From assembly GCF_023343835.1 (NCBI RefSeq), contig NC_064458.1, positions 4,665,829 through 4,729,828 on the forward strand: DNA of 64,000 nucleotides, read 5' to 3'. Below, in pieces: positions 30,601-46,799 of this stretch; position 1 is the stretch's first letter; each line of letters starts with the position of its first letter. The position numbers were made by a program, and so were the translations under genes. The notes beneath the pieces are model-generated. The model ran no database searches and was not told the origin of the DNA. It saw only the letters and a program-made list of their open reading frames with translations. This stretch comes from Lagopus muta. Lineage: Eukaryota.

Positions 30601-33600
30601 CACTGGAATGGATGCCCAGGGAGGTGGTGGAGTCACCGACCCTGGGGGTGTTCAAGGAAAGGCTGGATGTTGTGTTGAGGGACATGGTTCAGTGGGAGCT
30701 GTTGGTAAGAGGTGAACGGTTGGACTGGATGAGCTTTTAGGTCTTTTCCAACCTTGGTGATTCTATGATTCTATGATTCTATGAATTCTGTCTTAGGGGA
30801 ACTAAGAACAAGCATGAATAACTTATCTTCATCCATATTGTCCAGAGCTTCCTCATCAGCCTTCCCTTAAGGTAGCACAGAGCAAATTACTTACAAATTA
30901 AAACAAGAAACTTCACACGCTGCAGAAAATGAAGAGGTGACTGAAGAGGCCTTTCTGCTGTTTTCCTAATTGTCATGTGGGGTGAAATACCACTACAGTT
31001 ATTACAGTGTTAAATGATGAGGTAATAAGTGGCCTTATTAGAAATAAATGAGCTATCAGGAAGGCTGGAGCACATTCAGATTTTTTCATGTTTTATCTGT
31101 AAGTGTTGTGGCTTAACCCTGGCAGGCATCTGAATGCCACACAGCTACTCATTACTCACCACCGGTGGGATGGGAGACAATCAGAAAGGGAAAAATATTA
31201 GAACTGTTGGGTTGAGATAAAGACAGTTGATCAGGCGAAGCAAAACAAGGAATTCATTCACTGCTTCCCATGGACTTCATGCACTGCTTCCCACTTCAAA
31301 GAAAGCAGGGCTTATCTTGCATAATGCTTTCTTGGGAGAGCAAACACCATCACTGTGCACATGCCCTTCTTCCTCCTTTACCCCAGCCTTTATTGCTGAT
31401 GTTGTACAGCATGGAATATCCCTTTGGCCAGTTTGAGTCCACTGTCCACAGCCCCTTGTGCCCACCCAAGTGACCCCTGTAATTTTCCTCCATGGCTCCA
31501 GGTTTATCTGCATCACCTTTACATATGGTGTTCTCTAATCCTCAGTAATTAGGGTTCAGCCAAATCCTGACGTAACAGGTTTCACTTCCTCATAAAGGCA
31601 ACCACCTTTTTAGTTCATGCAGCTGTCTAGTTAGTTCCTCTGGGGACCTTGCTAGGTGTAAGGCCTCAGCCACATTCTGCATTTCTGAATTAAAAAAAAC
31701 ACTTAGAAGAGTACTACCGATTACTAATTGCACTTATGCTGCAGATCAGTGCTCTTTGTGCATAGCTCCTCAACTGCCAATTCCAGAATGACATAGATTG
31801 CTCACAAAATGTGGCATCTCCTATTCTTATTGCTCTTCCGGGCAATATGAATTCACTGCAAGTTCAGATTCTTATTCCTAACTGCTCTGGGGATTGGAGA
31901 TCTTTAAAAAAGGCTTCAGACTTCAGTCTGCTTAATGTGATCCAAGAAATATATCCAGAAGAACATACATAGAAAATTGAGGCCATAGAGTATGTCCATC
32001 AATGGACACGGTCTTAACGAAGCTTGCAGCTCTCAGTTCACTTCCCACCAAAGAGCATGGACACTTTGAATGGGTTCCCAATTTTGGCATCTTGTATGGC
32101 AGAGTAAAAGCAGCCTGAGAAGCCAATGAATGTTAGGTTGCTTTCTCTAATCTGTCATTTTATCACTTTATTTATCACTTTATTTAGGCAAGGAAATAAA
32201 TATTTACAAAAGTGGACTGCAGATCTCTTGATAGCAAGGGAAAAAAAAAACTGAATATAAATCTGAATGCAGAGTTGAGTAGCTCTGTGATGTGGGACGT
32301 GCTGCTCCAGCTGGATGCACTTCAGTCTATAGGGCCTGATGGATTCATCCCAGGATACTCCAAGAGTTTTCTCAAGTATTTTTCAACAGTCTTAGGAGTC
32401 TGGAGAGGTCCCAGTAAACTGGAAGTTGGCAAACATTCTCCCAGTTTTCAAGAAAGGCGAGAAAAAAGATCATGCTAATTATAGGCCTGTCAAATTGACT
32501 TCAGTGGCTGGGAAGAAAACAGCCTGCGCTCACTGATCACAGCCAACACAGGTTCATGAGAGGAAGGTCCTGTTTAACGCGCTTAACAAGGATCCCACCT
32601 CACTGACCAAGGGGAGCCAGCTAGTGTGATCTTTTTGGATGTCCTCAAAGCTTTCAGTACTCTTTCAGATGGTATCCTTCAGGACAAAATATCTAGCGTA
32701 CAGCTAGACCAAACCATAATGTGATGGGTAAAAAGTTGGCTGATGGGTTGTGCTCACAGAGTTATGATAAATGGGGCTACATCAGGCTGGCAGCCAGCAA
32801 TAGAACTCCATTCTAGAGCTTGTCCTTTTTACTGGACACACTGGATACAGGATACGGGACTTGAAATTGGAGAAGCTGTTGACCTCCTCAAGGGTGAAGA
32901 GACCTTGCACAGTCCTTGACAAATGGCAGGGCTGGGCAATTCCCAGCATCATAAAGTCCAGCCAGAGCAAGGGCCAAATCCTGCCCCTGGGTGTGCAGCC
33001 CCTGGCCATGGCTACAACAGGGAGATCAGAGGCCAGACAAGCAGCCTGCAGAACAGGACCTGGGGATTCTGGTCAAGAGCAAGTTGGGTCTGAGGCAGCA
33101 GCGTGCCCTGGAGACCAAAGGCCCCACAGCCCTGAGCTGCTGGAGTTCAGGGAGCGTTGGGACACCATGAGGGTTTGGGTTTTGGTGGTGCTGTGGAGCC
33201 AGAGCTGGACTCAGGGATCCTGTGGGTCCCTTCCCACTCAGGCGGTGCTGTGATCCTGTGATTCTGAGTGCTGGACTTGCAGCACCCATTTTCGTGTCCC
33301 CTTTGGAAAATGTAAGATTTTGATGCACGGCCTTTCCCCTCCCTTCTTCTGCACGGTGATGCCCAAAGCAGCAGTGTGGATCTCTTCACTCTGACACGGC
33401 TGTCCTCACTCCTGGGCAGTTGTGATTTGGGGCTGCTTCAACCTGTTTGTATAATGAATATCAGGGTCACAGTTAAGATTTAATTGGGACAGAAATGAAA
33501 CTGTTTGCAAAGGTGAGCTAAAGCTAAAAGCACACTGCAGAAATGCATGCTGCAGGCAGGTGGCTGAAGGAGCAGTTTCAGCCTGTGGCTCAGCTAGCAC

Positions 33601-33845
33601 TGCTTTTTGTACACTTCTGCATTTGAACTGTTTCTCGTTTACATTTTTTGTAGATGGAAAAGGACATGAGAAGTGAAACAGAAGAGAGTGATGTGGATGA
33701 AGAAAGAGAAAACATGATGGAAAAAGAGAAAAATGGGATTGCACGTTTCAGCAATGTCACGAGCAGCAATGACATCCAGAGGAATGGGTCTGAGCCACTG
33801 AACAGCAGAGCCCATCTCACCAATGGCCACGTCAAGGAAAGATAG
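474..33845 (+). CDS. CERS4: Ceramide synthase (homeobox + TLC/Lag1p domain), 10 coding exons, ~398 aa. Exons: 474-646, 14537-14654, 17883-18001, 20996-21053, 24321-24371, 27600-27692, 28888-29016, 29284-29390, 29792-29948, 33654-33845 (stop TAG 33843-33845).
   Basis: Spliced translation reads [58 protein letters not shown]|[19 protein letters not shown]..|[39 protein letters not shown]|[20 protein letters not shown]|[17 protein letters not shown]|[31 protein letters not shown]|[43 protein letters not shown]|[10 protein letters not shown]..|[31 protein letters not shown]..|[17 protein letters not shown]... This is colinear with the vertebrate CerS family and closest, from memory, to CERS4 (NEWFWQDRFWLPPNVTW, KKFCEASWRF, MEKDIRSDVEES). 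Every exon is bounded by AG/GT and the phases are consistent (2,0,2,0,0,0,0,2,0). The first coding exon starts at an acceptor (ttccag|gATG), so a non-coding 5' exon lies upstream of the window. The paralog assignment as CERS4 is less certain than the family assignment. Confidence 0.85.
2700..3100 (+). mobile_element. CR1 LINE fragment (ORF2 C-terminal region)
   Basis: The ORF translates to ..[22 protein letters not shown].., matching the CR1 ORF2 DIRKHFFTERVVKHWNRLPREV. Confidence 0.5.
4290..4500 (-). mobile_element. CR1 LINE 3'-end fragment
   Basis: …gaaccacagagtcattgaggttgggcag…gacttccaggatggtgtctccgctgccttcctgggcagcctgttccagtgcctcaccattt is the reverse-complement pattern of the CR1 3' terminus. 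Confidence 0.55.
6676..6800 (-). mobile_element. CR1 3'-end fragment
   Basis: catagaatcatggaatcacatggtcggaaacgacctacaagatcacctagtccaac. Confidence 0.5.
8940..9172 (+). mobile_element. CR1 3'-end fragment
   Basis: …[40 protein letters not shown], followed by the gattctgtgattctgtag tail. Confidence 0.6.
13811..13900 (-). mobile_element. CR1 3'-end fragment
   Basis: cacagaatcacaaaatcacagaatatcagaaattggaagagacttccaaagatcatctagtccaatcc. Confidence 0.5.
13900..14232. repeat. Minisatellite, ~40-45-bp degenerate unit ×~7 (…ATGGGATGGGAC…GATGTCCCCAGGGTCACCCAGATGTCCAC…)
   Basis: Recurring blocks gtcacccagatgtccacatgggatgggac / gaggggtcccc / gtcacctagatgaccgcagtgtcaccc, visible by eye. It lies in CERS4 intron 1, adjacent to a CR1 tail. 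Confidence 0.6.
14537..14654 (+). CDS. CERS4: CERS4-like coding exon 2
   Basis: ttgcag|AGCC ... aaagag|gtgagt; encodes (R)[39 protein letters not shown], matching CerS2 FVATPLAALLNIKEKTRLRAPPNATLEHFY. Confidence 0.8.
15300..16200. mobile_element. Probable avian ERV-type LTR / LTR-derived repeat
   Basis: …gaggagaaaatgagagagaaaaggactcaagggttgagatgagaacagggagag…caaaacagagtcagc… resembles the gtgggatgggggagagaatc…gtgggttgagataaagacagtttaata core of avian ERV LTRs and of the element at 31.1 kb. It overlaps GC-rich spurious ORFs on both strands. Confidence 0.4.
17883..18001 (+). CDS. CERS4: CERS4-like coding exon 3 (homeobox-like segment)
   Basis: [39 protein letters not shown] matches the CerS motif [21 protein letters not shown]. 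119 nt, with ag|..|gtgagc. Confidence 0.85.
18420..18800 (+). mobile_element. CR1 LINE 3' end (ORF2 C-terminus plus tail)
   Basis: ORF 18463-18711 is [73 protein letters not shown]…, then cattctatgattctatcatgattctg. Confidence 0.85.
20996..21053 (+). CDS. CERS4: CERS4-like coding exon 4
   Basis: tgtag|ctggagg...gat|gtgagt; encodes (C)[19 protein letters not shown], matching SWRFTFYLIAFIAGMAVIVD. Confidence 0.8.
22560..24050 (-). mobile_element. CR1 LINE, ~1.5-kb fragment including ORF2 endonuclease and upstream region
   Basis: Minus-strand ORFs: [65 protein letters not shown] (CR1 EN: LGDFNHPDICWK..QSRRFLECIEDNFL..LLDL.LTN) and …[32 protein letters not shown]… (CR1: GKRLAWLNRELLLKLRTKRRVY.LWKKGQ). 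Confidence 0.75.
24321..24371 (+). CDS. CERS4: CERS4-like coding exon 5
   Basis: ttccag|aagccttgg...cag|gtaagt; encodes [17 protein letters not shown], matching KPWFYDMKKVWEGYPIQ. Confidence 0.8.
25400..25622 (+). mobile_element. CR1 3'-end fragment
   Basis: …gcaggggttggtccaggtggcctccagatgggccaacctcagccattctgtgattctgtg. Confidence 0.5.
27484..27518 (+). repeat. Poly-T tract (~27 T with a few interruptions), ~80 bp upstream of the CERS4 exon-6 acceptor
   Basis: ttttttcttttggttttttttttttttttttttttgc. Confidence 0.9.
27600..27692 (+). CDS. CERS4: CERS4-like coding exon 6
   Basis: [31 protein letters not shown] followed by gtgagt. The acceptor could instead be 27608; 27600 is chosen to keep family length. 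Confidence 0.75.
27960..28790 (+). mobile_element. CR1 LINE fragment (ORF2 RT C-terminal part plus 3' tail)
   Basis: …[43 protein letters not shown]… and …[33 protein letters not shown]…[18 protein letters not shown]…, with the tail ggtttctatgattctattattctga. Confidence 0.85.
28888..29016 (+). CDS. CERS4: CERS4-like coding exon 7 (TLC core)
   Basis: [43 protein letters not shown], between tcttcag| and |gtgagc. Confidence 0.85.
29284..29390 (+). CDS. CERS4: CERS4-like coding exon 8
   Basis: [36 protein letters not shown], between cag| and |gtgagt. Confidence 0.8.
29792..29948 (+). CDS. CERS4: CERS4-like coding exon 9
   Basis: (T)[52 protein letters not shown], between tcttgcag| and |gtagga. 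Confidence 0.8.
30420..30792 (+). mobile_element. CR1 3' end
   Basis: [37 protein letters not shown]…, followed by gattctatgattctatgattctatgaattctg. Confidence 0.85.
31090..31500 (+). mobile_element. Solo LTR of an avian endogenous retrovirus (ERVK-like LTR family)
   Basis: tgtggcttaaccctggcagg…cagctactcattactcaccaccggtgggatgggagacaatcagaaagggaaaaatattagaactgttgggttgagataaagacagttgatcag…gcaaaacaaggaattcattcactgcttcccatgg…gatgttgtacagcatggaatatccctttggccagtttgagtccactgtccacagcccc. This is the characteristic avian ERV LTR architecture, lying in CERS4 intron 9. Confidence 0.65.
32250..33265 (+). mobile_element. CR1 LINE fragment (ORF2 RT region to 3' tail)
   Basis: …[62 protein letters not shown]… (CR1: LLQLDAHKSMGPDGIHPRVLKELADVI…GEVP.DWKLANVVPVFKKGKKEDPGNYRP), then the tail ggtgctgtgatcctgtgattctgag at ~33250. 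Confidence 0.65.
33654..33845 (+). CDS. CERS4: CERS4-like terminal coding exon (acidic, Ser-rich C-terminus), stop TAG
   Basis: tttgtag|ATGGAAAAGGAC...; [24 protein letters not shown]...NGHVKER*, matching the CerS4 C-terminus MEKDIRSDVEESDSSEE. Confidence 0.75.
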   Translation: MEKDMRSETEESDVDEERENMMEKEKNGIARFSNVTSSNDIQRNGSEPLNSRAHLTNGHVKER

Positions 33846-36800
33846 CCCTCTTTGTGTCTGTCATGAATCCGGTCCACCATCTTTAGAAGCAGTTTTGCTT
33901 GTTGTATAGATATAAAAGATTGCAATTGCAGTATCATAACTAAATTTGTTTTTATTGTAAACAGAATTGTGTACAGTTAGTGATATCTGAGGGGAGTTTT
34001 TGGTCTTTCTTCAACGTAAGTTTTCTGTAGGTTGTAGCCTTGAGGCAAATAGAAGGGGATCCAAGTGGTTTGACTTGAATTAGACAATATCACAGCAGGT
34101 GTTAAACATGTTGATCTTGAAAAACACTCAGAACAGTGGATGATGATGTTGGACAATGTCACCTCTTAACTGCCTAATGCTGTTTGATAGGAATCTATTT
34201 GGAATGGCCTCTGGAAGCAAAGCCCACTGCCACTAATGACTATGGACAGCAAGTGTGAAACTCTAAACCTTAACACAGGGACACCTCCTTCAAGAGCAGA
34301 GGTGCCCCATACGTACTGGTAACATTGAAACTGTGTATAGTGGTATAAAAGCTTTGGAAAGATACAGAAGAAAACATTTTCGTACAGGAAATGCTGCTGT
34401 GTGCCATGTGACTGGTTTTGTAATGTATGGATCTCAGTCCCTTCTCTTGTCAGCACTGTTGCCTCAAAGGGGGGGAACTCCAAAGGCTGTAATGAAGAGA
34501 GTTCCCACCCCAGTCGTGGTTGTAGGGGCTAGAAAATCCAAGCAGTTGTGTCTCAGCTGTCAGATAATGAATCCCATCTTGGAAAGTACCAATTTCAGGA
34601 GAAGAGAGGGGACAAGGAAATTGATATTCTAGAAGACAACACCGATCAAGTGCTCATGATTTTATGTAGGATGATTGGCACAGTGGGAGATATTTGCAGT
34701 CAGCTTGTGGTAAGAAGGGAATGGAACACCCCTGTTCTCAGAGGGAGAAGAATCAGAGAAGATCTGCTGAACTTCATGGCACAACGCTTTAATTTAGGCT
34801 TCTAATTCTGGGGCCGCTGCCTAGATGTGTTGGGAGTTTAAAGCAGTAGGCAGTGAAGTCATGATGCAATTCTGATTCATTCCTTTAGACGTTTTGTATC
34901 TTATATCCTGTGTAGTTTTAGACTTTTGATTCTGTAATACCTTAGGAGAGTTAAATAGGTATGGCACAGATTTCTGTCTTATAGATCTATTAAACTATGA
35001 AACCACATTACTAACAGATTTGCTGTTACAATAGCAGGGACTTAGTCTGCGCAGGCCATGCAGACGCTTCCCTGTCTGTGCCTGGCAAGGCCCAATGCTA
35101 ACTGATGGACACGGACCAAGGAAATGCCCAATTCTAGGAGGTGATGCACATTTATAAAGTTAAGAGGCAAATGACAGTCTAGTAGGATGAGGGTTTTCAG
35201 CAGCTCACCAAGTTCACCTGAAATATGACTGGGGAAGCTTTGATTTTAGCCTTTGGTCTTAGGTTTCAATCAAAATATATTGGATAACTTCAGAGGGAAA
35301 AGTGGTTTCAGCACAGGTGATTGATTCCAGGGCAGTGACATACTCAGAGCAGAGCATCTCTTCCTGCATCATCATTTCATGCGGATCATTAAATCCATGT
35401 TTGTTGAAGATAGCTTCTCTCTGGATGTTGGGGTAATTTAGAGTTCAGAGTACAATTTCTGTATACGGTCATGTTTCTGTAATCCACATGTGCAATCTTG
35501 CCACTCCTCTGCAGGCGATGAGCTCAGGAGGAACGGTTATGTATCATTTTGTACTACTGAATGTAACAGTTCTTTGTAAATTACTTTTGAACGGTTTGGC
35601 TCTCTGGGCTCTTTTCTACTTCTTGGACTCTCAGGAGGTGACCAGGCTGGTTGGTGACACGTCTGGGTGCTGTTGCCAGGGCTGTTGAACACTTAGCGTG
35701 CATGGAGGTGATGCTGCAGAGCATTCAGCCGTATCAGGCCGGCCAGAAAAGAGCAGCAGCTGCCTCCTTTGTGTCCTGCTTGGTGAAGCTTCATTTGGCC
35801 CTGAAGCAGTTTGGGGCACCCCTGTGTTAAATCTAGAGGCAGTCCAGGTGACGTGACACTGACAGAGCAATGGGAGTCCACAGTCTGGTGGGTGATTTGA
35901 AGCTGTGGGGACGTGGGAAGGGAAATGCATCTGGAGTCTTCTTTGTCGTGAGGTTTCAGAAGGGTGGCAAGGATTGATGCTGTAAAATCACAACACATCT
36001 GAGGAGCAGAATGCTCTGCCCAGGCTCATTGTAAGGCTGATCTGATCACTGTGAAAGGATGCATCAAGGATTTGGGAGGGCTCTTGGGGGCTGAATTAGG
36101 ACACTTCAACTGAGTAACTGAGCATGGCAGTGGTGAATCAGAATTTTTCTTGCCATCAAATTGCTATGGCTCAGCGAAGCTCTGTGTGCTGTTTTCTCCC
36201 CACAATGGCTCCACATTCGCTCTATGTCTGCTCTGGTGTCAGGAAGTTTGTGAGTGCTGCATTAGTATTTCTGAATTCATTGCATCAACTCCCTTTATTA
36301 CCACCCATGGACGCAGTTCCTCTTGGAGCATCACAGACCTCAAAACTGAGAAGCTGCTGTAAAAACCTGCAGCAAAACTCCGTGTCACGTCTGCTAAAAT
36401 AACCCAGCAGAGCGAATGGAGCTCCAGCTGCAACAGCAGAATCTCTTTGCAATTGATCCTTATCAGCCCTGTGTGCAAGAAAGGAGTGCACCGCACCATG
36501 TGTGCGCCAAGCAGTGTCATCAAGCTGCAGGGGAGATGGAATGTCCAGCTCCAGGTGAGCTGTGAGAAAGAGAACCTCTCCTGGTGTCTTTAGGCAGCTG
36601 TGCAGTGCTGAGCTGGAGACTGGAACAGCTGGGCCCCAGGGCTGGCAGCTGGCACCGAGCTGCTGGCTCCAGTGGGCACTGCTTGGGGTCGTGTTTTTAA
36701 AGCACGCACTGGAAACATGGGAGAAGTGCATCCACTGTGTTTCTTGATTCAGACACGTATGCCCAAGGGAGCCTTTACTGGATGACTGCGCTTCAAACAA

Positions 36801-37869
36801 CATTGCTTTTCTCATCTGCACGTGTGCAACAGACAGTGCCTGCAGGCAGGGGCGTCCCTAAGAAACAGCAGAAAGCTGAAGTCATGTCTAAACAAGGAAA
36901 GGACTCGTAAGCTTGGCAGATCGATCTGGACATACCAGGAAATACACTGAGAAACAAAGGGCAGCAGTAATCTGCTCTGAAAAACACTGGGAAAACTATA
37001 GGAGACTTAAAATAAAAGGGCTGAGAAGGGATCAGGCTGGAGCTGCCTGTTGCTGCCTGCATAAGGCTTCCCTACTTGGAAGCAGGCAGTGTCCACGTCA
37101 GCTGTCTTCTTGCTGAGGCTGCATCCCCCCAAATGATGGGCATGAAGGGGTTCTATAAGAAACAGCAATGGAATAACAGCAAACCTTCAGCCTGGGTGGT
37201 ACTCACCCAAGAGCCAAGAGGGAGCTGACACCATAAAGAGTTCAGCTACCAACTGAGCAAGGTCGCTGTTGTTTCAAACCATGGTGGTGTCAGAAACTGA
37301 TGGAAGTCCCAGGTGGAAATGTGAGGAGCTGCTTACATTTGGCCCGAGCAGATTGGCACAACGTACCATGAGTTACTGGAAACGTGTGTGAACATTACGT
37401 TGTGGGAAAGAGCTCCCATGTGTTGTGTGTGAGGAAATCGTGTCTTTCTCTGCCAGAGTTCTCCCAAAGAGTCAACAAGCTTATGCAGAGGAGAGAACCT
37501 GCTGGTAGTGCTTTGCAAAGGTGTTCAGAAAGACTCCTGGGCTGAGGTCTGAAGAAACTCACCTTCAGAGGTGAAAAAATTGTAGTTAGGCTTTCAGAGC
37601 AGGCACTGAGTCCCACTGCTGGAAAAATTGGACAGAGAGAGCCGGTGCTAAGCTCCAAACCTGGGTTTACATATTTCTGCATGGAGTTTTAGGATGGCCA
37701 AAGTGATGCGGGAGGTCAGCAGTGCAAGCACAGCAGATGCAGTTCTTTCCCAAAGAGAGGTGGTCTCTGGGGAAGCACCGACCCCGAGGGGCAGAAGCAG
37801 CCCCTGACCCCACATGGAGACAGAAAGAGTCAGGGAGGTGAGGCGCTGCTTTCCCCATCTGTTCTGCAG

Positions 37870-37988
37870 GAGGACCTGATTTCAGTGGCCAAGCGAAGCG
37901 GCCTGCCAGTCAGAACAGTGCAGAGCTGGTTCCGGCAGCGGCGGGCCCAGGACCGTCCCAGGCTTACGAAGAGGCTCTGTGAGGCGAG
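37870..37988 (+). pseudogene. Isolated CerS homeobox-like exon (paralogous to CERS4 exon 3) with no companion exons found: orphan exon, gene fragment, or part of an unannotated gene
   Basis: ttctgcag|GAGGACCTG...GAGGCGAG|gtaggt. It is 119 nt, the same length and phase as CERS4 exon 3. It encodes EDLISVAKRSGLPVRTVQSWFRQRRAQDRPRLTKRLCEA, roughly 70 % nt identity to exon 3 at 17883-18001. I found no CerS exon-1, exon-2 or TLC exons upstream (34.8-37.8 kb) or downstream, although short exons could be missed by eye. Confidence 0.5.
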
Positions 37989-39004
37989 GTAGGTGGGCCA
38001 GAGTGGGGATGGGAGCCTCCAACAGCGAGCTGCATGGCAGCACACGTCCTGCCCTTGCTCTGAATGCAGTCAGGTGGAGTGACAGAGCCACTGAGCAGTG
38101 CCCCCAGCTTCACCCTTCCTCCCCTCCCACTTCTGCATTTTAAAACAATAAAGTTGACTCAACAGTATCCACTGATCAGGTTTAAATCTCAGGTGCTGGA
38201 GGGATTTTCAGCAGTAATACCATTGGCAAACACCTTTTTAAGAGGATTTTTATATGAAATGACAAATTTTAAATACTCTTACCAGCTCGTGGACTGTTGG
38301 ACATAACAGTGTGACAACCAGCCACTGGGCATGGACAGAGAGAGGTGACAACAGAAAAGCAACAGAAATCACTGAAAACTTCACCAAATTTCTTTTCCTC
38401 AAACTTTCCACTCTAATATGAGATACTAATGCATATCTCAGTAGAATATGGAATCAGAAAAGACAGAGGAGCCAAGTGTCCAAATGAAAAGGATCAGGTT
38501 ATTGTTGGATCTCAGCTTGAGGCTTTAAACTGTATGTACAAAGAGGCTCCAATCAGGCACAAGATCCTCTGTTCCTTGTTCTCTGAAAATGTTTCTCAGT
38601 GCTTGAATCCTGTTCCCACATCACAAAAGGAGGCAGGTAGAGGCACCTCGGGAGTGATGCTGATTCCCACTTAGTGCTGGCAGCATACGTCTGGGATTTG
38701 GGCACAGTAGAACCCAGGTGAGCTGTGGGTACCCCACTGCCTTACCAGCATATTGCTGCACATGCAAACAGAGCTGAGCTGCTGCAAATCTGTGTCCAAA
38801 CAGAACCACTGTGGGCTTCTCGGCTGGTGGGAGAGCACCTGGGAGGGTGGGATCCCACATCCATCTGCCCACACCTATTCCTTCTCCAGCTGTTTCTGCT
38901 CTCAAGCCCTTGTGCCTAACTACACCCATTTTGCTGCTTTCCAGTCGGGTGCTGGATGTGATGGCAAAGCCTGGGGAGGCATCCAAGCTCCAGAGGGAGT
39001 TATA

Positions 39005-39960
39005 ATTACAGAATCACAGAATCACAGAATGGCCAGGGTTAGAAGGGACCTCAAGGATCATGAAGCTCCAACCCTCCTGCCACATGCAGGGCCACCAAAC
39101 TCCCCATTTAATACTAGACCAGATTGACCAGGGCCCCATCCAGCCTGGCCTTGAACACCTCCAGGGATGGACGGGGCATCCACAGCCTCTCTGGGCAGCT
39201 GTTCCACCACCTCACCACTCTCTCTGTAAAGAATTTCCCCCTAACGTCCTACCTCAATTTTCCCTCCCTCAACATCAAATCATTTCCCCTTGTCCTGCAG
39301 TTATCTATCGTTTCAGAGTTGATTCCCCTCCTGTTTGTAGGCTCCCTTTAGGCGCTGAAAGGCTGCAATGAGGTCACCCCACAGCCTTCTTTTCTGAAGG
39401 CTGAACAAACCCAGCTCTCTCAGTCTGTCTTTGTAGGGGAGCTGTTCCAGCCCCTGATCATCTTCATGGCTCTCCCCTGGACCCTCTCCAACAGCTCCCT
39501 GTCTTTTTTGTACTGGGGGTTCCAGACCTGGACACAGTGCTGCAGATAGGGCCTCACAAGAGCAGAGTAGAGGGGGACAATCACCTCCCTGTCCCTGCTG
39601 GCCAGCCTTCTTCTGATGGAGCACAGGATACCATTTGCATTCCAAGCCACAAGAGCACACTGCTGGCTCATGTTTTGTTTTTCATCTATCAAGACTCCCA
39701 GGTCCCTCTCTCTCAAGGTCTCAGGTCCCCTGCTCTCAAGGAGCTCCTTCCAGTCTGTAAGGATGCCTGGGATTCCTCCAGCCCAATGCCAAACTCTGCA
39801 TTTTGCTGTGTTGAACCTCATCAGGTTCACCCAGGCCCACCTTTCCAGCCTGTCACTCCATCACCAAAGGCCTCCAGCTGGCCCTGCGCCAGCACCCGAC
39901 TTCGTGACAGCCCACGTGGTTCAACCAGAGAACCCAACTGTGCCAGTATCCATAGCCCTT
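39005..39960 (-). mobile_element. CR1 LINE fragment (3' tail plus ORF2 RT C-terminal half); it forms the left boundary of tandem-array copy 1
   Basis: The plus strand reads cagaatcacagaatcacagaatggccagggttagaagggacctcaaggatcatgaagctccaaccc…cagcctctctgggcagctgttccaccacctcaccactctctctgtaaagaatttcccc. Minus-strand ORFs are …[86 protein letters not shown]… and …[33 protein letters not shown]. Confidence 0.85.
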
Positions 39961-40719
39961 ATTAAAAAGAGCAAAATGAGGCCGTGAAAATCAGCTCCTT
40001 TAATAAGAAAGGAAATACGTTCTAAGAGGGGGGTAGAAGAAGAGGATGAGAATGAAGCCAGGCCATGACAAGAACGGCAGGAGGAAGAGGCCGAACTCAT
40101 AAAGGAGACGAGAACCATTTGACTCCTGAGCACGAGTGAGCTGACAGATATGTGAAAAGACTTCAGCTGTCATGCAGGGGAGCACTCTGACACTGGGAGA
40201 ACGGGGCCGCAAGCCTGGACTAGGCGGGCAGCAAAGGCAGGCATCTGGGATCTCTTTCACGGGCAGGGTGCATTGGCAAAGCCCTTGGAAATGAGGCACG
40301 AGCCTTCCCCTCGTGGAGGTGACTCTCCGTAAGGGCCGAGAGGGAAAGGAGTCCCTTCAAAGAAGATCTGGTATGTTACCCAGGCAAGCGGTGCACCGTG
40401 GGGAAAGGTGTGCCTGAGGGCACCAGCTCTTCTGGAGGTGATGCGTAATGCTGAAAAAAGAGGGGAGATACAGACTGGCTGTTGGCCGGCAATTGCTGAT
40501 TCTGAGGGCCCAGGGCTGCCGCCATCTTGCTTGGGAGCCTGGGACGCATTCCGCCCCGAGGGGGTAACCGTGATGTCACAGTGGTGGCAGGGAGCGGCCA
40601 TTGTGACCCGCGGGGCTGGGAGCAGAGCAAAGGCTGCCGGGCTCAGAGCGTGGTCAGTGCGGCCTGGTGAGGTGCAGAGAGAGCAGGGACTCTTCAAGTG
40701 CTCACCGTTGACGCGCAAC

Positions 40720-43510
40720 ATGTCCAGTAGGAAGCGGAAGGCCCCCGACTCCGGGGAGCAAGGTGAGAGCAAAGCATCCCTGCGTGCAGCTCCCCGCCGC
40801 CGGGCAGAGGGGTGCTGGGGGTCTGCCAGCGGCAGAGAGGGAAGGGAGGGGCAGGAGCAAGGAGCACGGCCCTGGGGACCGCCCTCAGGGACAACTGGCC
40901 CCGCAAGGTGCTCACTGCTGCCCGCCTTTGCTCTCTCCTCTCCAGTGTGCATGCTGTGTCGCCGGGCGGATGTCGACCCGAACATCTGCGGGCGCACCTT
41001 TGCCGAGAGCGACCTTTGCGTGCATGAGTTCTGCTTGGTGAGTTCCAACCCTCAAGGGCTCCTGCCAGCTTCCTGCCAGGGATGCTCCCTTCCTGTCTGT
41101 CCTAATGAGATCCTGCTCTGCTCTTTCCCACAGCTTTTTTCTTTGAAGAAAAACACATTCTTTGAAGAAAGCGACCCCTGGGAGGAAACGCTGCGCCTCC
41201 CCGTTGGGACCATCAGATGCAGAATCAAGCAGGCGGACCAGAAGGTGAGCTTTGTGCCAGGAGAGGCTCACGCCAGCTTAGTCTGCACCCAGAGAAAGCA
41301 ATGGCAGCCCTTCCAGCGGGCTCCAGGGCAAAGTCCTGCCATAGCAGACGAGCCTTCTCCGCCAGGCGGCTCTGCAGAGTGGAGCCCAGCAGCTTCCGCA
41401 GCCTGTGCCCTGCCCAGAGGTGTGGGGCCGGCCGTGGAGGCCCTGAGCCTGCTGCTGATCGGGGCTGCCTTGTTCCTTTCAGCAATGCTTTGTTTGTGGC
41501 GAGAGAGGAGCCGCCATCAGCTGCGCAGAGAGAGGCTGTGCACGCAGCTTCCACCTGCCCTGCGCCGCGGACGGTGAATGCGTCACCCAGTTCTTTGGGC
41601 AGCACAGGTAAGGGCTGTCAGCAGCAGCCAAGCCAGGGAGGAACCCACAGCGACAGCTCCCAGCAGCCTGCCAGAGATGGGGCCTGGGGCTCCTGCCTGC
41701 TGCTCTGCCCTCCTGGCAGTGCTTCTCACTGTGCCCATCACTTGCATCGTCCCCCAGGTCCTTCTGCTGCGAGCACCGCCCGCGACAGGCAGCGGAGGCA
41801 GCTCCACCCCAAGGCACTGACTGCGTCATCTGCCTGGAGCCCCTGGAGGACAGCACGTCCTACCAGACCCTGTGGTGCCCAGCGTGCAAGCACACCTGGT
41901 TCCACCGCCGCTGCGTCCAGGTAGAAGCCCTCCCCTCACCCTGCGGCCACGGCCCGCGCTCAGCAGCACCGAGCCCCGCTCACGCTCACGCTGCTTCTGC
42001 TTCTCCGGCAGGGGCAGGCCACGAACGCCGGCACCATGTGCTTCCAGTGCCCCATTTGTTGAGACACGGAGCAATTCCGGGCAGAAATGTCCACTCTGGG
42101 GATCCAAGTCCCAGTCAGGTTGGTGTCCTTCTCCCCAGCGCTGCAGATGGGAAGGCGCGAGCGCTGGGCCTGCCCAGGGACTGTCCCGGCAGGCCTGGCC
42201 CTTTGCTGTCTCACCAGCACAGGCCTCAGCTTCACGGAGAAGCTGGAAATGGGGTTGCCTTGGATGAACGGGGATACCCCGGATCACACATGGCAGGGAA
42301 CCGGGAACTCATCGCATTCCCTCCCTTCTCTTGTAGGAGACCGTCTTGGTGGGATGACAACACCTACCCATCACTTCTGCGGAGGCACAGGCGCTGCGAT
42401 GTCAGCAAGTGCCTTTACCCAGGAGGCAGGGAGCAGGCAGAGGTGAATGGGTGAGTTACCTCAGCAGCCCTCTGGGCTTCTGCAGGGGATCTCCCCCTCA
42501 ACACCGGATGGGGAACCAGGGCTGAGCACCGCAGATGTGCCGGCCGCTGCCTGGCTTGGCTCACTTTGTCCTCACAGCCACAACCCGTTTGCTTCCCCAG
42601 GCCCTGGCAGCTGCTGCTCTGCAGCTCCTGTGCTGCAGAAGGGACCCACCGACGATGCTCCTACCTGAGCAACAGAGTTGGCAGCTGGGAGTGTGACAGC
42701 TGTGCTGGCATAGGCACCGGTAAGATGCAAACAGCTGTGGCTCCCTAGGCGGGGGCCGGGCAACGCCTGGCAGTGGGTGCTGCTCAGGGCGGCCCTGCCA
42801 GGCTCTCTCTGCCCCAGGAAGGAGGGCAGCCCGTTGCGACTCAAGGCTGCAGCTTCATCCCAATGATCACCTTCCTGCTTTCCTTTACAGCCTCCAGCAG
42901 CAACACGGAGCGCGCCGGACCCAGCACCAACACGGAGCGCGCCGGCCCCAGCACTTCCAGCCAAGGGGCTCCGGAGCCTCCCCGTGGCTCCCAGGGACCG
43001 GAGAACATCAGCTCCGGCTCCAGCAGCCAGGCAGCATCGGGCCCCTCACACCGGTCCCAGCTGCCTGAGAACAGCCGCCTGCCCAGTGAGCCTGGGACAC
43101 GGCAGAGGGCAATCGGCCCACGCCTCCCTGAGGATCAGGAGGCATCTCTGCAGCGCCGAGGACGCCGCGGGAGCGGCCGTGCAACAGCCCCGCGCACCAG
43201 CAGCAGCTCCCGCAGGTCCACCCCACGGAGGGCACCGCGGCCCTCCAGCGACTCCCCGGTGGCTGCACCCAGAAGGAGCCCCAGGCAGCAGGGGACGGGC
43301 CGGGCACGAAGCCGCTCCCCGCTTCAAGATCGGGCCTCACGTTCCCAGAGCCGGCCCAGAAGAAGCCGTGGCAGCAGACAAACACCACGCCGAGCTGCAC
43401 AGAGCAGCACCCTCTGCTCAGCCGCCCCAGTGACATCGAGGCCCTCGAGGGGTTCCCCGCTGCCTGGACACAGAAGACCCTCCAGGCAGCAAGGGAGGGC
43501 CCACACATGA
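40720..43510 (+). pseudogene. PHF7-like (PHD/ePHD zinc-finger, RING-like) gene with an SR/basic C-terminal tail, copy 1; premature TGA in exon 6. Exons: 40720-40762, 40946-41037, 41134-41244, 41483-41607, 41758-41920, 42012-42118, 42337-42450, 42601-42719, 42891-43510.
   Basis: Spliced product: MSSRKRKAPDSGEQ|VCMLCRRADVDPNICGRTFAESDLCVHEFCL|LFSLKKNTFFEESDPWEE..IRCRIKQADQK|QCFVCGERGAAISCAERGCARSFHLPCAADGECVTQFFGQHR|SFCCEHRPRQAAEAAPPQGTDCVICLEPLEDSTSYQTLWCPACKHTWFHRRCVQ|GQATNAGTMCFQCPIC*DTEQFRAEMSTLGIQVPVR|RPSWWDDNTYPSLLRRHRRCDVSKCLYPGGREQAEVNG|PWQLLLCSSCAAEGTHRRCSYLSNRVGSWECDSCAGIGT|ASSSNTERAGPS...RS-rich 206 aa...GRAHT*. Block-for-block it matches mammalian PHF7, recalled from memory ([118 protein letters not shown]). 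All introns are GT-AG. Codon 42060-42062 is TGA here but CGA in copies 2 and 3. Confidence 0.7.
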
Positions 43511-43692
43511 AGCCCTTCCGCAGCGGGATGTCAGGCTGCGACTTCCCACACAGACCCCAGCACGCCGCAGCAGCCAAACCCAACAGCAGCGGCCAGCCTG
43601 GGCACAAAGCTGCTCCCAGGTCCATCTGCAGAACCACATCCCCACAGCCAGACCTCAGTCTGCACAGGAGCAGCCGGGTGCCAATGACACCT

Positions 43693-43850
43693 GCTCAACT
43701 TGGTCAACATCAGCCAAGACGACAAATCCCACGCTCATTTACATCAGCTTGCTCAACTTGGTCAACATCAGCCAAGACGACAAATCCACGCTCATTTACA
43801 TCAGCTTGCTCAACTTGGTCAACATCAGCCAAGACAATAAATCCCACCCC
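43693..43850 (+). repeat. 58-bp minisatellite ×~3 (gctcaacttggtcaacatcagccaagacgacaaatcccacgctcatttacatcagctt), ~180 bp downstream of the PHF7-like stop. Copies also at 53802-53959 and 63911-64000 (partial).
   Basis: Direct repeats start at 43693, 43751 and 43808; the second lacks one C and the third diverges at its 3' end. Confidence 0.8.
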
Positions 43851-43929
43851 CACCCCCATCAGCTTCATTCTTCTCGTCTTTTCCTGGGGTGGGCAGAGTT
43901 CAGACCTCGACCACAGGGTTGCCTTCTCC

Positions 43930-45085
43930 CCAGCAGAATGGCTCAGGTTGGAGGGGCCCTTAAATATCATCCGGCTCTAACCCCCTTGCCGTGAGCAGGT
44001 TCATGCACCACCAGATCAGGATGCCCAGGATCCCATCCACCCTGGCCTCAAAGGACTCCAGCAACGGGGTGTCCTGAACCCCTCAGGGAGGAACCTCGCT
44101 GTTCCAGTGCCTCGCCACTCCCTGAGGAAACAGTTTCTTTCTAACACCTCATCTCTCTCTATCCTCTTTTAGTTTCATGCCATTCCCCCTTGTCCTGTCA
44201 CTATCAGAATGCATGAAAAAGTCAGTCCTCCTCCAGCTTGGCAGGACCCTTAAAAGTACGAGAAGGCTGTGGGCACAGAGGTCTCCTCAGAGCCTTCTGT
44301 TCTGAAAGCGAAGTGAACCCCACTCCCTCAACCTGCCTTCTGAGGTGCGGTGCTCCAGGCCTTGTCTTCTCTTTGCGGCCCTCCTCCGGACCCCCCCTCC
44401 CACCGCTCCACACCCCTCCTGTGCTTGGCACCCCAGGCTTGGGCGCAGTACTCCAGATGGATGCCCTCGCAAGGGCACAGCAGAGACGGACAATCACCGC
44501 CCTGCCCTGCTGGACACCTTCCTCAGGCCTTCCGGGCTGCAGGCACGCGCTGCTGGCTCATCTCCGGCTTTTTGGCCATTACGACCCCCAGGTCCTTCTC
44601 CACAGGGCTTCTCTCGCTGTCTTCTCCTCCCAGTCTCCACCCGTATCTGCGACTGCCTCAACCCAATCGCAACACCTTGCACTGGGCCTTGTTAAACCTC
44701 ACGAGATGCTCACGTGCCCTGTATTCCAGCCTGGGTCCAGGTCCCTCTGGATAGCGTCTCTGCCTTCTGCTGTGCCAAGCGCACCATCAGCTCGGTGCCG
44801 TCAGCTGGGGGTGCACTCAATCCCACCGTCTGTGTCCTTGATAAAAATGCTCACGAGCATCAGTCCCCAGACGGACCCCTGGGTGCCCGGCCTCCACCTG
44901 GACACAGAGCCGCTGGCAGCAATCCTCGGGCACAACATCCAAACAACCTGCATCCACCTGTCTGTTCAACACTCAAATGCACATCTCTCCACTTCAGACA
45001 TTAGGAGGTGCTGTGGGACGAAGACATCAGTCGCCCTTCCTTTGTCCATCACAGCCATCACTCCATCACCAAAGGCCTCCAGATG
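43930..45085 (-). mobile_element. CR1 LINE fragment (older, diverged) inside the repeat unit; copy also at 54039-55194
   Basis: …ctcgctgttccagtgcctcgccactccctgaggaaacagtttctttctaacacctcatctctctctatcctcttttagtttcatgccattcccccttgtcctgtcactatc…ggcgcagtactccagatggatgccctcgcaagggcacagcagagacggacaatcaccgccctgccctgctggacacc…catcactccatcaccaaaggcctccag is the reverse complement of the CR1 3' tail and ORF2 3' region. Confidence 0.7.
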
Positions 45086-46799
45086 GCTCAGGCACAGCCG
45101 CCCTTGCTGAAGCCGTGCTGGCTGTCTTAGGTCGCCTCCCCATCTCGCGTGTGCCTTCACATCTCCTCCAGGAGGATCCACCCCGCCATGTTCCCAGGCC
45201 CACAGATGAGGCACAGCGGCCTTCAGGCCCAGCTGGCTTCTGGCCCAGCCCCACTGAGGCACGAGGTCTCAAGTCAGGATGGATCAAGGCTCTGCTGGCA
45301 GGGCAGCCCAATTCTGGGGGTGTTTCATGGCTTGGGGTTGCCACTGTTCTGTATCGTTCATTCATTAGCAGCAAACCATTTCCATTTGTAGTATTTTTTA
45401 AAGCGTTGGGGGGAAAAAAAAGGAGAGAAACAAAGCGTAAAACTGGTGGGATATCTGACTTCTTTTTTCGTGAAGGTAGTGCGTCAATGCCTCGTTTGAT
45501 GTCAATGGTTGCAATTTTTCGTGAGGTCTTAATGCGTTTGTCAGATTTCTGATGAAATTTTACTCTTGCCATGCAATTGTTCACAAGCGTGCTGACTGCC
45601 AAAACGCGATGACGTGAATAAGGCTTGACTGCAAAGCGAGGGATATTTCTGTCTGTTAAAAGAGGTCTGACAGAAGTCCAGTCAGGAGACATGGTTAGAT
45701 TTTGGAGTCGAATATCTGGTTGGAACTCCAGGCATTCCAATTGAAAACTGGCAGGTAATGCATTTGTATCAACTTAAAATGGGGTCACCCACATAAAGGG
45801 ATGATTTTTTGGCAAAATTGAAACCGGTTTCCAAATTCCTTTATCAAAAGAGAAAGCATGGCTGCACATTCTTTGCTGTTCAGAGCACTGCGTGGGGCCG
45901 GGGCTGGGCTGCACTGCTGGCTGTGCGGAGCTGCGCATTGGGTACACCTGCTCTGGGTCCCAGAGAGAGCTCCAACACACAAAGTAAAGCAATACGGTGC
46001 CCAACTCTCTTGCAAAATACTACTTTAGGATTCAGCATTCACCAAGAAAGAGCAAACCTAGCTTTTACAACAGCTCACACAAATTACCCAAAGACACCCT
46101 GTGAGACAGAAAGCATGAAGATTCATGGAGGCAATCAGCTTTTTTTGGGGTGGAGTTTCAAGCACGCAGCCCAGCCTGGAGCACAGCCCCTTTTCCGTTT
46201 GTAATCCTGCAGGAGTAGAGCACCTGCTGGGGCACAGAGCATCATCTGGACAGTTTCCACTGACAGAAGTAGAGCATCATACTGGGGCAGAAAAAGAAAA
46301 AAAAAAGAAAAGAGCATAGCTATATTAAAATACTTTGAACTGAACTTTTCACCCTGCAGGATGAGCTCACTTCAGGGCTCACATCGTGAGAGGTTTGGAA
46401 AAAAATATTCAAACATCCTGATTTGTGTTTCCAGTGCTACGGATTAAAAGCTGCAGAAATGCCTTCTCCTCCACCATCCATCAACTCTGATCCTGGGACA
46501 GAGACCCACAAACTCCTCAGGGTTGGAAGGGTCCTCTGAGGGCCATCCGGACCAACCCCCCTGCAGCGCACAGGGACACCGCAGCTGGGTCAGGTCTCCA
46601 GGGACGGAGCACCCAGCGCACCTCTGTGCGACCTGTGCCAGTGCCTCACCACCTCTCTGCAGAAGATTTCGTCCCTATAGCCAACCTAAACCTCCCCTCT
46701 TGGAGCTTGCAGCCATTTCCCTCTCGGAGCTGGAAACCACACTGACACTTTGGTCAGTTTTGGAGCAGAAAATGAGATGAGATGTAGATAGACAGATAA

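What the first reader, a model, noticed from the sequence alone, without database searches (positions are those of the whole stretch)
37870..37988. Orphan CerS homeobox-like exon between the CERS4 3' end and the PHF7-like array
A 119-nt exon-like segment with a perfect acceptor (ttctgcag|) and donor (|gtaggt) encodes EDLISVAKRSGLPVRTVQSWFRQRRAQDRPRLTKRLCEA. It matches CERS4 exon 3 in length and phase and is about 70 % identical to it, yet no other CerS exons are evident within ±3 kb. It could be the relic of an old CERS4 tandem duplicate whose other exons were lost, perhaps when the PHF7-like amplicon inserted or expanded. It could equally be an exon captured by a different, unannotated transcript, or part of a divergent paralogue whose neighbours I missed. 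The open frame and intact splice signals after this much divergence hint at selective constraint rather than neutral decay.
Basis: seen in the sequence. Interest (0 to 1): 0.6.

Follow-up and report, generated by a model that had tools for sequence, protein, structure and literature searches.

The report
Leftover exon of a ceramide-synthase paralogue
The lone exon is real, but it is the last surviving piece of a broken copy of a second bird ceramide-synthase gene (CERS4-like); it looks intact only because it is almost identical to the working copy, so it is an ordinary gene relic.

Summary
Window 37870-37988 (+) is a 119-nt open segment with ttctgcag| and |gtaggt. It has the same length and phase as CERS4 exon 3 (17883-18001) and is 71% (nt) / 60% (aa) identical to it.

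The comparator was wrong, though. Birds carry a second, old paralogue, "ceramide synthase 4-like" (CERS4L, 353 aa). It is intact in at least ten galliform species. The orphan is CERS4L exon 3: 115/119 nt identical to white-tailed ptarmigan, two amino acids from three other grouse, with identical splice signals and flanking intron DNA 96.6-98.7% identical.

In the window, CERS4L exons 1-2 are removed by a clean ~2.3-kb deletion at 37564/37565. Homology stops 25 bp before exon 4 (39007/39008), at an interspersed repeat followed by the PHF7-like array. No other CERS4L exon lies at 30-64 kb.

The intact galliform CERS4L gene lies elsewhere, beside HNRNPM in chicken, king quail and ptarmigan. It carries a reciprocal dead copy of the CERS4 3' end. 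The two copies cluster by lineage, which indicates a duplicated segment homogenised by gene conversion.

The relic's own changes are all nonsynonymous (pN/pS about 1). An open frame after 3-4 substitutions is expected about 75% of the time. There is no sign of constraint. Interest is low.

The parts
37870..37988 (+). Relic exon 3 of the CERS4-like (CERS4L) paralogue. It encodes the C-terminal half of the CerS Hox-like domain and is 119 nt, phase 0 in and phase 2 out.
   Evidence: Searches give the sequence and translation; 115/119 nt identical to Lagopus leucura CERS4L exon 3, with the same ttctgcag/gtaggt as all galliform copies; 37/39 aa identical to L. muta, Centrocercus and Tympanuchus. 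Pfam Homeodomain 31-56/57, 22.0 bits.
32935..37564 (+). Left part of the segment that exists twice in phasianids: end of the last CERS4 intron, the last CERS4 coding exon (33654-33845), the 3'UTR, and the ancestral CERS4-CERS4L spacer. The copy upstream of the functional CERS4L in chicken, turkey and ptarmigan is homologous throughout but lacks 33600-33966.
   Evidence: 85-98% identity to L006, L008, L009. (segment-by-segment identities). (collinear with the woodpecker CERS4-CERS4L spacer).
37564..37565 (.). Deletion junction. About 2.3-2.5 kb carrying the CERS4L promoter-proximal region, exon 1 (with the ATG) and exon 2 is missing relative to ptarmigan, turkey, chicken and quail. There is short CAC-type microhomology at the junction.
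   Evidence: window 37564 = L008 9541 / L009 9546 / L006 9555, and window 37565 = L008 ~11858 / L009 11955 / L006 12051. One search gives the junction sequences.
37565..37869 (+). Remnant of CERS4L intron 2, directly upstream of the relic exon.
   Evidence: the 37565-38047 block is 97.9% identical to the L. leucura CERS4L locus.
37989..39007 (+). Remnant of CERS4L intron 3. The sub-block 38048-38422 is absent from all galliform functional copies, which carry an interspersed repeat there (quail carries a deletion). It keeps a 44-bp collinear match to woodpecker intron 3.
   Evidence: One search shows the collinear woodpecker hits at 38079-38122 and 38702-38801.
39008..39879 (.). Breakpoint and filler. 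Homology to CERS4L ends at 39007, 25 bp before the exon 4 acceptor. An interspersed repeat (39009-39854, multi-copy in the window and in other bird loci) follows, then 25 bp of unique sequence.
   Evidence: breakpoint sequences against L008/L009. (the repeat hits many places).
39880..64000 (+). PHF7-like tandem array. The period is 10,109 bp and at least 2.4 copies are present. Copy 1 and copy 2 differ at 3 sites in 10,109; copies 2 and 3 differ at 5 of the 3,903 positions that could be compared. It occupies the place where CERS4L exons 4-11 would be.
   Evidence: best hit is the chicken chr28 PHF7-like protein, 77% identity.
47409..47623 (-). Inverted fragment of CERS4L intron 4 embedded in the array unit, repeated at 57518-57732. 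It is ~70% identical to ptarmigan, turkey and quail (a shorter 93-bp match to chicken is 80%).
17883..18001 (+). It is an ancient paralogue of the relic, not its source.
   Evidence: pS 0.46, pN 0.25 against the relic.

Best explanation
The segment is a non-functional relic. It is the only surviving exon (exon 3) of a truncated copy of the avian CERS4-like gene, sitting at the ancestral tandem position just downstream of CERS4.

Shown:
- Birds and other sauropsids have two CERS4-type genes. In woodpecker they lie head-to-tail, CERS4 then CERS4L.
- In phasianid galliforms the intact CERS4L lies elsewhere on the same microchromosome. In chicken, king quail and ptarmigan it lies beside HNRNPM.
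- In chicken, turkey and ptarmigan it is preceded by a dead copy of the CERS4 3' end that lacks the last coding exon.
- The window holds the reciprocal product: an intact CERS4 followed by the CERS4L 5' region, from which exons 1-2 have been deleted and which breaks off 25 bp before exon 4 at a repeat and the PHF7-like array.

Inferred:
- A segment running from the last CERS4 intron into CERS4L was duplicated before the phasianid radiation. Each copy then lost the half that had become redundant.
- The two copies have since been kept similar by gene conversion. That is why the relic exon is only 2-4 changes away from the working exon of grouse and still has an open frame and perfect splice signals.
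- It has no promoter, no start codon and no downstream partner exon, so it most likely does nothing.
For: - Paralogue identity. The orphan is 36/39 aa identical to L. leucura CERS4L and 37/39 to three other grouse, against 23/38 to the adjacent CERS4 exon. At nucleotide level it is 115/119 to L008.
- Orthologous flanks. Window 33967-37558, 37555-38047 and 38423-39007 align to the L. leucura CERS4L locus at 98.3%, 97.6% and 93.2%. They align collinearly to chicken, turkey, quail and woodpecker.
- Missing parts. There is a clean deletion of exons 1-2 and a break 25 bp before exon 4. No other CERS4L exon lies at 30-64 kb.
- A functional gene exists elsewhere. A 353-aa CERS4L is annotated in Gallus, Meleagris, Coturnix, Excalfactoria, two Lagopus, Centrocercus and Tympanuchus, with a 351-aa form in Cyrtonyx and a partial one in Odontophorus. 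It lies next to HNRNPM and KLHL in quail, chicken and ptarmigan.
- Reciprocal relic. The chicken, turkey and ptarmigan CERS4L upstream regions contain the CERS4 last intron and 3'UTR but all lack window 33600-33966.
- Concerted evolution. In the 3'UTR segment, turkey A vs turkey B is 97.8% and window vs ptarmigan B is 97.9%, but window A vs turkey A is only 92.1%.
- The window copy is structurally old. It keeps 375 bp with a collinear woodpecker match that all phasianid functional copies have lost or replaced.
- No constraint. pN/pS is 0.98 against ptarmigan, compared with 0.16-0.45 for most pairs of functional copies. There are 3 nonsynonymous and 0 synonymous changes on the relic lineage. 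P(intact) is 0.74-0.79 for 3-4 random hits. Flanks diverge about 1% on the window lineage.
- No coding context. There is no ATG in the exon or in frame upstream.
Against: - I could not see the rest of this species' genome. The presence of an intact CERS4L copy in the same genome is inferred from ten related species, not observed.
- The species is unidentified. The exact CERS4 protein is not in the collection. Part of the 1.3-3.4% difference from L. leucura may therefore be species divergence, and the age of the last conversion event is uncertain.
- The relic could not be checked in any other phasianid. The turkey copy ends in an assembly gap at window 34642, and look-ups for quail CERS4 and L. 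muta CERS4L failed.
- It is absent within 10 kb downstream of CERS4 in Cyrtonyx. The old-duplication model therefore rests on structural marks, not on seeing the relic in several species.
- The substitution counts (3 vs 0) are too small for a significant test.
- No transcript data were available.
Confidence: 0.8

Rival explanations
1. Recent, grouse-lineage partial duplication. The CERS4L 5' region was copied next to CERS4 only a few million years ago and then lost exons 1-2. Under this model there is no ancient duplication and no gene conversion.
For: Window vs L. leucura functional locus is 96.6-98.7% identical in all six segments. The window copy is equidistant with ptarmigan from turkey and chicken. 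The exon shares the derived grouse motif QSWFRQ. No relic lies downstream of CERS4 in Cyrtonyx.
Against: - The duplicated CERS4 3' part is certainly old. Chicken, turkey and ptarmigan share the same deletion of the last CERS4 exon in the copy next to CERS4L.
- Turkey shows the same by-lineage clustering independently.
- The window copy lacks the interspersed repeat present in intron 3 of the chicken, turkey and ptarmigan functional copies. In its place it keeps sequence matching woodpecker intron 3.
- The intron-4 fragment in the array is ~70% identical to three of the functional copies, which suggests an old split.
Confidence: 0.12
2. Lineage-specific loss. This species has no other CERS4L, and the window shows the one and only orthologue in the course of decay.
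For: CERS4L has been lost repeatedly in birds. Macaw and hornbill go straight from CERS4 to KLHL. Isolated CERS4L-like exon remnants persist in wrentit and macaw. The window's order (CERS4, then CERS4L remains) is the ancestral tandem order seen in woodpecker.
Against: All ten galliforms sampled, including four grouse that are within about 2% of the window in this region, keep CERS4L, full-length in nine of them. Their functional copy has a different context (HNRNPM side in chicken, quail and ptarmigan; no CERS4 last exon in chicken, turkey and ptarmigan) that the window does not share, so the window is the other copy.
Confidence: 0.05
3. The exon is functional in another transcript. One possibility is an alternative 3' exon of CERS4 read-through transcripts: exon 9 ends in phase 0 and the relic starts in phase 0. 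Another is a 5' exon of the first PHF7-like copy.
For: It is on the same strand as both neighbours, with intact AG and GT and an open frame. If the donor is not used, the frame stops at once (CEAR*, TAG at 37990-37992), and an AATAAA lies at 38147.
Against: - Every one of these features is inherited unchanged from the functional CERS4L exon, so they need no new function.
- There is no ATG in or upstream of the exon.
- None of 120 PHF7-like protein representatives, and none of the 120 CERS4-type hits listed, contains the exon in a new context.
- The chicken chr28 PHF7-like protein starts at its own ATG inside the unit.
- PHF7-like copy 1 carries a premature stop.
- pN/pS is about 1.
Confidence: 0.03

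Closest known systems
Ceramide synthase 4-like (CERS4L) of galliform birds, e.g. XP_042742790.1 Lagopus leucura and XP_025000077.2 Gallus gallus (names and accessions as given by the sources)
   Same: Exon 3 has the same 119-nt length and phase and identical splice signals. It is 115/119 nt and 36-37/39 aa identical. The flanking intron 2 and intron 3 sequences are orthologous or paralogous at 93-98%.
   Different: Exons 1, 2 and 4-11 are absent, along with the promoter and the whole TLC (catalytic) domain. It sits next to CERS4 rather than next to HNRNPM. It carries two private replacements, Q to R in AKQ and F to L in the otherwise invariant KRFCEA motif.
CERS4 exon 3 in the same window (17883-18001)
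   Same: Same exon length, phase and encoded half of the Hox-like domain.
   Different: Only 71% nt and 60% aa identical. pS is 0.46, i.e. an ancient paralogue shared with woodpecker and also seen as gene pairs in lizards, snakes and turtles. There is no intron homology.
Unprocessed (duplicated) pseudogene fragments in segmental duplications that undergo concerted evolution
   Same: It was copied at DNA level with its introns. The two copies degenerated reciprocally. Paralogues within a lineage are more alike than orthologues between lineages.
   Different: Nothing unusual. Only one exon survives, and the conversion tract appears to be interrupted by non-homologous blocks: the exon 1-2 deletion and the 375-bp block.
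PHF7 gene-family expansions in chicken and turkey (PMC10360393 and PMC11835228, both citing Fouchecourt et al. 2022, Genomics 114:110411)
   Same: The array next to the relic consists of PHF7-like genes. Its best match is the chicken chr28 PHF7-like protein.
   Different: This concerns the neighbour, not the relic. In this window the array unit has additionally captured an inverted piece of CERS4L intron 4.

Membership tests
CERS4-like (CERS4L) gene, exon 3 | Closer in sequence to CERS4L exon 3 than to CERS4 exon 3 | tested here: met
   96.6% nt and 92-95% aa identity to grouse CERS4L, against 71% nt and 60% aa to the window's CERS4 exon 3.
CERS4-like (CERS4L) gene, exon 3 | Same exon length, phase and splice signals | tested here: met
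   119 nt, phase 0 in and 2 out. ttctgcag| and |gtaggt are identical in ptarmigan, turkey, chicken and quail.
CERS4-like (CERS4L) gene, exon 3 | Flanking introns and upstream spacer homologous and collinear with the CERS4L locus | tested here: met
Intact ceramide synthase gene (Hox-like domain plus TLC domain) | Start codon and N-terminal exons 1-2 present | tested here: not met
   They are removed by a 2.3-2.5-kb deletion at 37564/37565. There is no tblastn hit.
Intact ceramide synthase gene (Hox-like domain plus TLC domain) | TLC / Lag1 catalytic domain exons (4-11) present downstream | tested here: not met
   Homology ends 25 bp before exon 4. No exon lies at 38-64 kb on either strand. What lies beyond 64 kb is unknown.
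Homeodomain (Pfam PF00046) | Reaches the curated score over the domain | tested here: inconclusive
   22.0 bits against a cut-off of 22.9. Only profile positions 31-56 of 57 are matched, i.e. half a domain, as expected for one exon.
Unprocessed pseudogene fragment | Evolves without purifying selection | tested here: inconclusive
   pN/pS is 0.98, with 3 nonsynonymous and 0 synonymous changes on its lineage. The exon changes no more slowly than its flanks. This is consistent with neutrality, but the counts are too small for significance.
Unprocessed pseudogene fragment | Not transcribed or spliced into a productive mRNA | not testable with these tools
   No RNA-seq is available. Indirect evidence only: no ATG, and no protein in the collection was found to carry it. 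One search is weak because the word index also missed true relatives.
Segmental duplicate under concerted evolution | Paralogues within a lineage more similar than orthologues between lineages | tested here: met
   In the 3'UTR segment, turkey A vs B is 97.8% and window vs ptarmigan B is 97.9%, while window A vs turkey A is 92.1%.
Segmental duplicate under concerted evolution | Both copies present in the same genome as the window | not testable with these tools
   Only the 64-kb window of this species is available. Both copies are seen in one assembly for turkey only (L007 and L009, about 130 kb apart).

The most novel reading that the evidence does not exclude
The relic is not inert. One reading is that it is spliced from CERS4 exon 9 as an alternative last exon. 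That junction is in frame, the product would end ...CEAR* at 37990-37992, and an AATAAA lies at 38147. The result would be a CerS4 isoform with a half-homeodomain tail. A second reading is that it serves as a gene-conversion partner that feeds variants into the working CERS4L. The H/R difference at QD(H/R)P among grouse functional copies matches the relic's R.
Probability: 0.05. Interest if true: 0.4.

Novelty: new member of a known kind. Interest (0 to 1): 0.2.

Why it matters
On its own it matters little, because it is a dead exon. It is useful as a marker of how this microchromosome region was rebuilt in phasianid birds. It shows that the original tandem CERS4-CERS4L pair was split by a duplicative rearrangement. 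Each copy then lost the redundant half, and the copies still exchange sequence.

For annotation, it warns against calling a new CerS paralogue or a chimeric PHF7-like gene at this position.

For method, an intact frame and intact splice sites are not evidence of constraint until the nearest paralogue has been identified.

Tried and rejected
This was a limitation of the word index, not absence. Quail and grouse CERS4L share many 5-mers with the query and were found later through the full CERS4 protein. I therefore give no weight.
- A search for further CerS exons found nothing credible beyond 30.1 kb except the relic and CERS4's own last exon. Queries were a recalled human CERS2 sequence (lead only) and then database CERS4L proteins at E up to 50. 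Several weak minus-strand hits at 48.3-49.3 kb (E 20-47) were not collinear and were rejected as noise.
- Identification of the species failed. I can say only that it is a phasianid close to grouse.
- Look-ups of Coturnix CERS4 isoform X4 and L. muta CERS4L returned nothing. The turkey CERS4 locus breaks at an assembly gap just before the informative region. The relic could therefore not be tested in a second phasianid.
- I considered that the exon could be a 5' exon of the first PHF7-like copy. This is rejected as unsupported. The chicken orthologue starts at an ATG inside the unit, no PHF7-like protein carries the motif, and copy 1 has a premature stop.
- I considered GC-biased conversion as the cause of the relic's changes. 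All three exon changes are weak-to-strong, but over 3,856 flanking sites there is no such bias (16 W>S vs 20 S>W). Dropped.
- Literature searches for a described avian CERS4-like paralogue found nothing relevant.

Full report
**1. The observation**

It is 119 nt, preceded by ttctgcag and followed by gtaggt. It is open in frame 1 and encodes EDLISVAKRSGLPVRTVQSWFRQRRAQDRPRLTKRLCEA plus two spare bases.

I rebuilt the CERS4 gene of the window from tblastn hits and splice sites. It has ten coding exons, 474-646 to 33654-33845, and encodes 398 aa. Its exon 3 is 17883-18001. That exon is also 119 nt and has the same phase.

The orphan is 71.2% identical to it over 139 nt and 60.5% at protein level. 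This similarity does not extend into the introns. Pfam places the peptide on the second half of the Homeodomain profile: positions 31-56 of 57, 22.0 bits against a cut-off of 22.9.

**2. What the exon really is**

A search of the protein collection with the window's CERS4 returned two groups of bird proteins.
- True CERS4 orthologues, 85-91% identical.
- A second group, about 61-64% identical and 351-362 aa, labelled 'CERS4 synthase' or 'ceramide synthase 4-like'.

In woodpecker the two genes lie head to tail on one contig, CERS4 then CERS4-like, followed by a BTB-Kelch gene and an LSM gene. Pairs of CERS4-type genes on one contig are also seen in lizards and snakes.

I call the second gene CERS4L. 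Its exon 3 in galliforms reads as follows.
- Chicken: GDLISVAKQSGLPVRTVQTWFRHRRAQDHPRLTKRFCEAS.
- White-tailed ptarmigan: EDLISVAKQSGLPVRTVQSWFRQRRAQDHPRLTKRFCEAS.
- Rock ptarmigan, sage-grouse and prairie-chicken: ...QDRPRLTKRFCEAS.

The orphan differs from the last three at only two residues (Q to R in AKQ, F to L in KRF). At nucleotide level it is 115/119 identical to the ptarmigan exon. All galliform copies carry exactly the same ttctgcag and gtaggt. The orphan is therefore CERS4L exon 3, not a decayed copy of the neighbouring CERS4 exon.

**3. What surrounds it**

The window's CERS4 is about 97% identical to Japanese quail CERS4 in the shared exons, so the window comes from a phasianid. 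I aligned the window to the CERS4L loci of king quail, chicken, white-tailed ptarmigan and turkey (L001, L006, L008, L009).

- Window 33967-37564 matches the DNA upstream of CERS4L.
- Window 37565-38047 matches the end of intron 2, exon 3 and the start of intron 3.
- Window 38423-39007 matches more of intron 3.

Identity to ptarmigan is 96.6-98.7% in the six segments.

Two things are missing. The first is a 2.3-2.5-kb block with the promoter-proximal region, exon 1 (with the ATG) and exon 2. It is cleanly deleted at 37564/37565 with a few bases of microhomology. The second is everything from exon 4 on. Homology stops at 39007, 25 bp before the exon 4 acceptor. There the window continues with an interspersed repeat (39009-39854) and then the PHF7-like array from 39880.

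With quail, penguin and woodpecker CERS4L proteins as queries, no other CERS4L exon is detectable at 30-64 kb on either strand.

**4. Why a functional gene and a relic coexist**

An intact or near-intact CERS4L is annotated in Gallus, Meleagris, Coturnix, Excalfactoria, two Lagopus species, Centrocercus, Tympanuchus, Cyrtonyx and Odontophorus.

In chicken, king quail and ptarmigan it lies between HNRNPM and the BTB-Kelch gene, not after CERS4.

In chicken, turkey and ptarmigan, the DNA upstream of this functional gene contains the end of the last CERS4 intron and the CERS4 3'UTR. All three lack the same 367 bp (window 33600-33966) that hold the last CERS4 coding exon.

A segment from the last CERS4 intron into CERS4L is therefore present twice.
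- Copy B goes with the working CERS4L and has lost the CERS4 exon.
- Copy A, seen in the window, goes with the working CERS4 and has lost CERS4L exons 1-2 and 4 onward.

In turkey both copies are in one assembly, about 130 kb apart and in the same orientation.

**5. Age and concerted evolution**

The shared deletion in copy B of chicken, turkey and ptarmigan makes the duplication older than their split. Yet the copies cluster by lineage, not by type. In the 3'UTR segment the identities are as follows.
- Turkey A vs turkey B: 97.8%.
- Window A vs ptarmigan B: 97.9%.
- Window A vs turkey A: only 92.1%.

That is the pattern of gene conversion between paralogous segments.

Three structural marks argue that the window copy is nevertheless an old, separate lineage rather than a fresh copy of B.
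- It keeps the CERS4 last exon.
- At 38048-38422 it has 375 bp with a collinear 44-bp match to woodpecker intron 3. Chicken, turkey and ptarmigan B copies have an interspersed repeat at that place, and quail has a deletion.
- A ~215-bp piece of CERS4L intron 4 sits inverted inside every PHF7-like unit (47409-47623 and 57518-57732). It is ~70% identical to ptarmigan, turkey and quail B copies, with a shorter 93-bp match to chicken at 80%. This suggests it has diverged without conversion.

I hold the 'ancient duplication plus conversion' model at roughly 0.65-0.7 and a recent grouse-lineage duplication at about 0.12. Either way the exon is a relic.

**6. Is the exon under constraint?**

- Against ptarmigan the exon has 1 synonymous and 3 nonsynonymous differences (pN/pS 0.98).
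- With turkey and chicken as outgroups, all three changes on the window lineage are nonsynonymous. One (F to L) hits a residue invariant in every CerS sequence I looked at.
- Most pairs of functional copies give pN/pS of 0.16-0.45.
- Over 3,856 flanking sites the window lineage has changed at about 1.0% (40 derived changes). The exon has changed at 2.5% (3 of 119), so it is not slower than its flanks.
- Simulating 3-4 random substitutions in the ptarmigan exon leaves the frame and the AG/GT intact in 74-79% of trials.

The open frame and 'perfect' splice signals are therefore inherited from a very similar functional copy. They are not evidence of selection on this copy. The counts are small and prove nothing on their own, but there is no signal to explain.

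**7. Could it be used by another transcript?**

The exon contains no methionine codon, and there is no in-frame ATG upstream in the open stretch. The third protein search used the PHF7-like protein of the array. Its best hit is the chicken chr28 PHF7-like protein (77% identity), which starts at its own ATG inside the unit. None of the 120 representatives returned carries a CerS homeobox motif. Copy 1 of the array, the only one downstream of the relic, has a premature stop that copies 2 and 3 lack.

On paper, CERS4 exon 9 (phase 0) could splice to the relic in frame, and without use of the donor the frame stops at once (CEAR*). But these features are the same in the functional copies and need no special explanation. 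I could not test RNA.

**8. Other birds**

CERS4L has been lost more than once.
- In blue-and-yellow macaw and in ground hornbill, CERS4 is followed directly by the BTB-Kelch gene.
- The macaw keeps a weak last-exon-like remnant. The wrentit keeps an exon-2-like remnant, 80% identical to quail, 5.5 kb after CERS4.
- In Montezuma quail the DNA after CERS4 aligns with the window only up to 36437, and no relic exon is present within 10 kb.
- The turkey copy ends in an assembly gap.

**9. Verdict**

It is wrong about the comparator and about constraint. The thing itself is an ordinary unprocessed pseudogene fragment kept fresh by similarity to, and probably conversion with, its working paralogue. 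Interest is low (0.2). It is a new member of a known kind.

Noticed in passing
window 39880-64000: PHF7-like genes on the + strand form a tandem array with a 10,109-bp period. Copy 1 and copy 2 differ at only 3 of 10,109 positions (41106, 42060, 44616). Copies 2 and 3 differ at 5 of the 3,903 positions that could be compared. The array runs off the end of the window. PHF7 expansion in chicken and turkey is already published (PMC10360393, PMC11835228).
   Followed up: partly
window 42009-42119 (mismatch at 42060): PHF7-like copy 1 has an in-frame stop (QCPIC*DTEQF) where copies 2 and 3 read QCPICRDTEQF. The copy nearest the relic is therefore probably a pseudogene.
   Followed up: partly
window 47409-47623 and 57518-57732 (minus orientation): Each array unit contains an inverted ~215-bp piece of CERS4L intron 4. 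It is ~70% identical to quail, turkey and ptarmigan (a shorter 93-bp match to chicken is 80%). The amplicon therefore captured part of the gene it displaced.
   Followed up: partly
L006 5834-7335 (chicken), L008 5378-6626 (ptarmigan), L009 5238-6612 (turkey): The DNA upstream of the functional CERS4L carries a dead copy of the CERS4 last intron and 3'UTR. All three species lack the same 367 bp holding the last CERS4 coding exon. This is the reciprocal relic to the one in the window.
   Followed up: yes
window 33050-39007 vs L007, L008, L009: The two copies of the duplicated segment cluster by lineage. Turkey A vs turkey B is 97.8%, window vs ptarmigan B is 97.9%, and window vs turkey A is 92.1%. 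This indicates gene conversion between loci about 130 kb apart. The H/R difference (QDHP vs QDRP) among grouse functional copies could be a trace of it.
   Followed up: partly
L003 49993-50112 (wrentit); L004 27779-27847 (macaw); L005 (hornbill): CERS4L seems to have been lost independently in several bird lineages. The wrentit keeps an isolated exon-2-like remnant (80% aa identity to quail). The macaw keeps a weak last-exon-like remnant. The hornbill has none. In macaw and hornbill, CERS4 abuts the BTB-Kelch gene directly.
   Followed up: partly
window 39009-39854, also 27918-28771, 18424-18797, 30512-30787, 43935-44892 and others: An interspersed repeat beginning ACAGAATCACAGAATCACAGAATGG occurs many times in the window and in the other bird loci. 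One copy marks the exact point where CERS4L homology ends. I did not classify it.
   Followed up: no
L007 (turkey GCA_000146605.4, 161823-198487): In this turkey assembly the 5' part of CERS4 (window 256-6355) is placed after the 3' end of the gene, with 100-N gaps at the joins. This looks like a local scaffolding error in that assembly.
   Followed up: no
The word-indexed protein search reported no candidate for the 40-aa exon peptide. Yet quail and grouse CERS4L in the same collection share eight or more exact 5-mers with it. Very short queries appear unreliable with that tool.
   Followed up: yes
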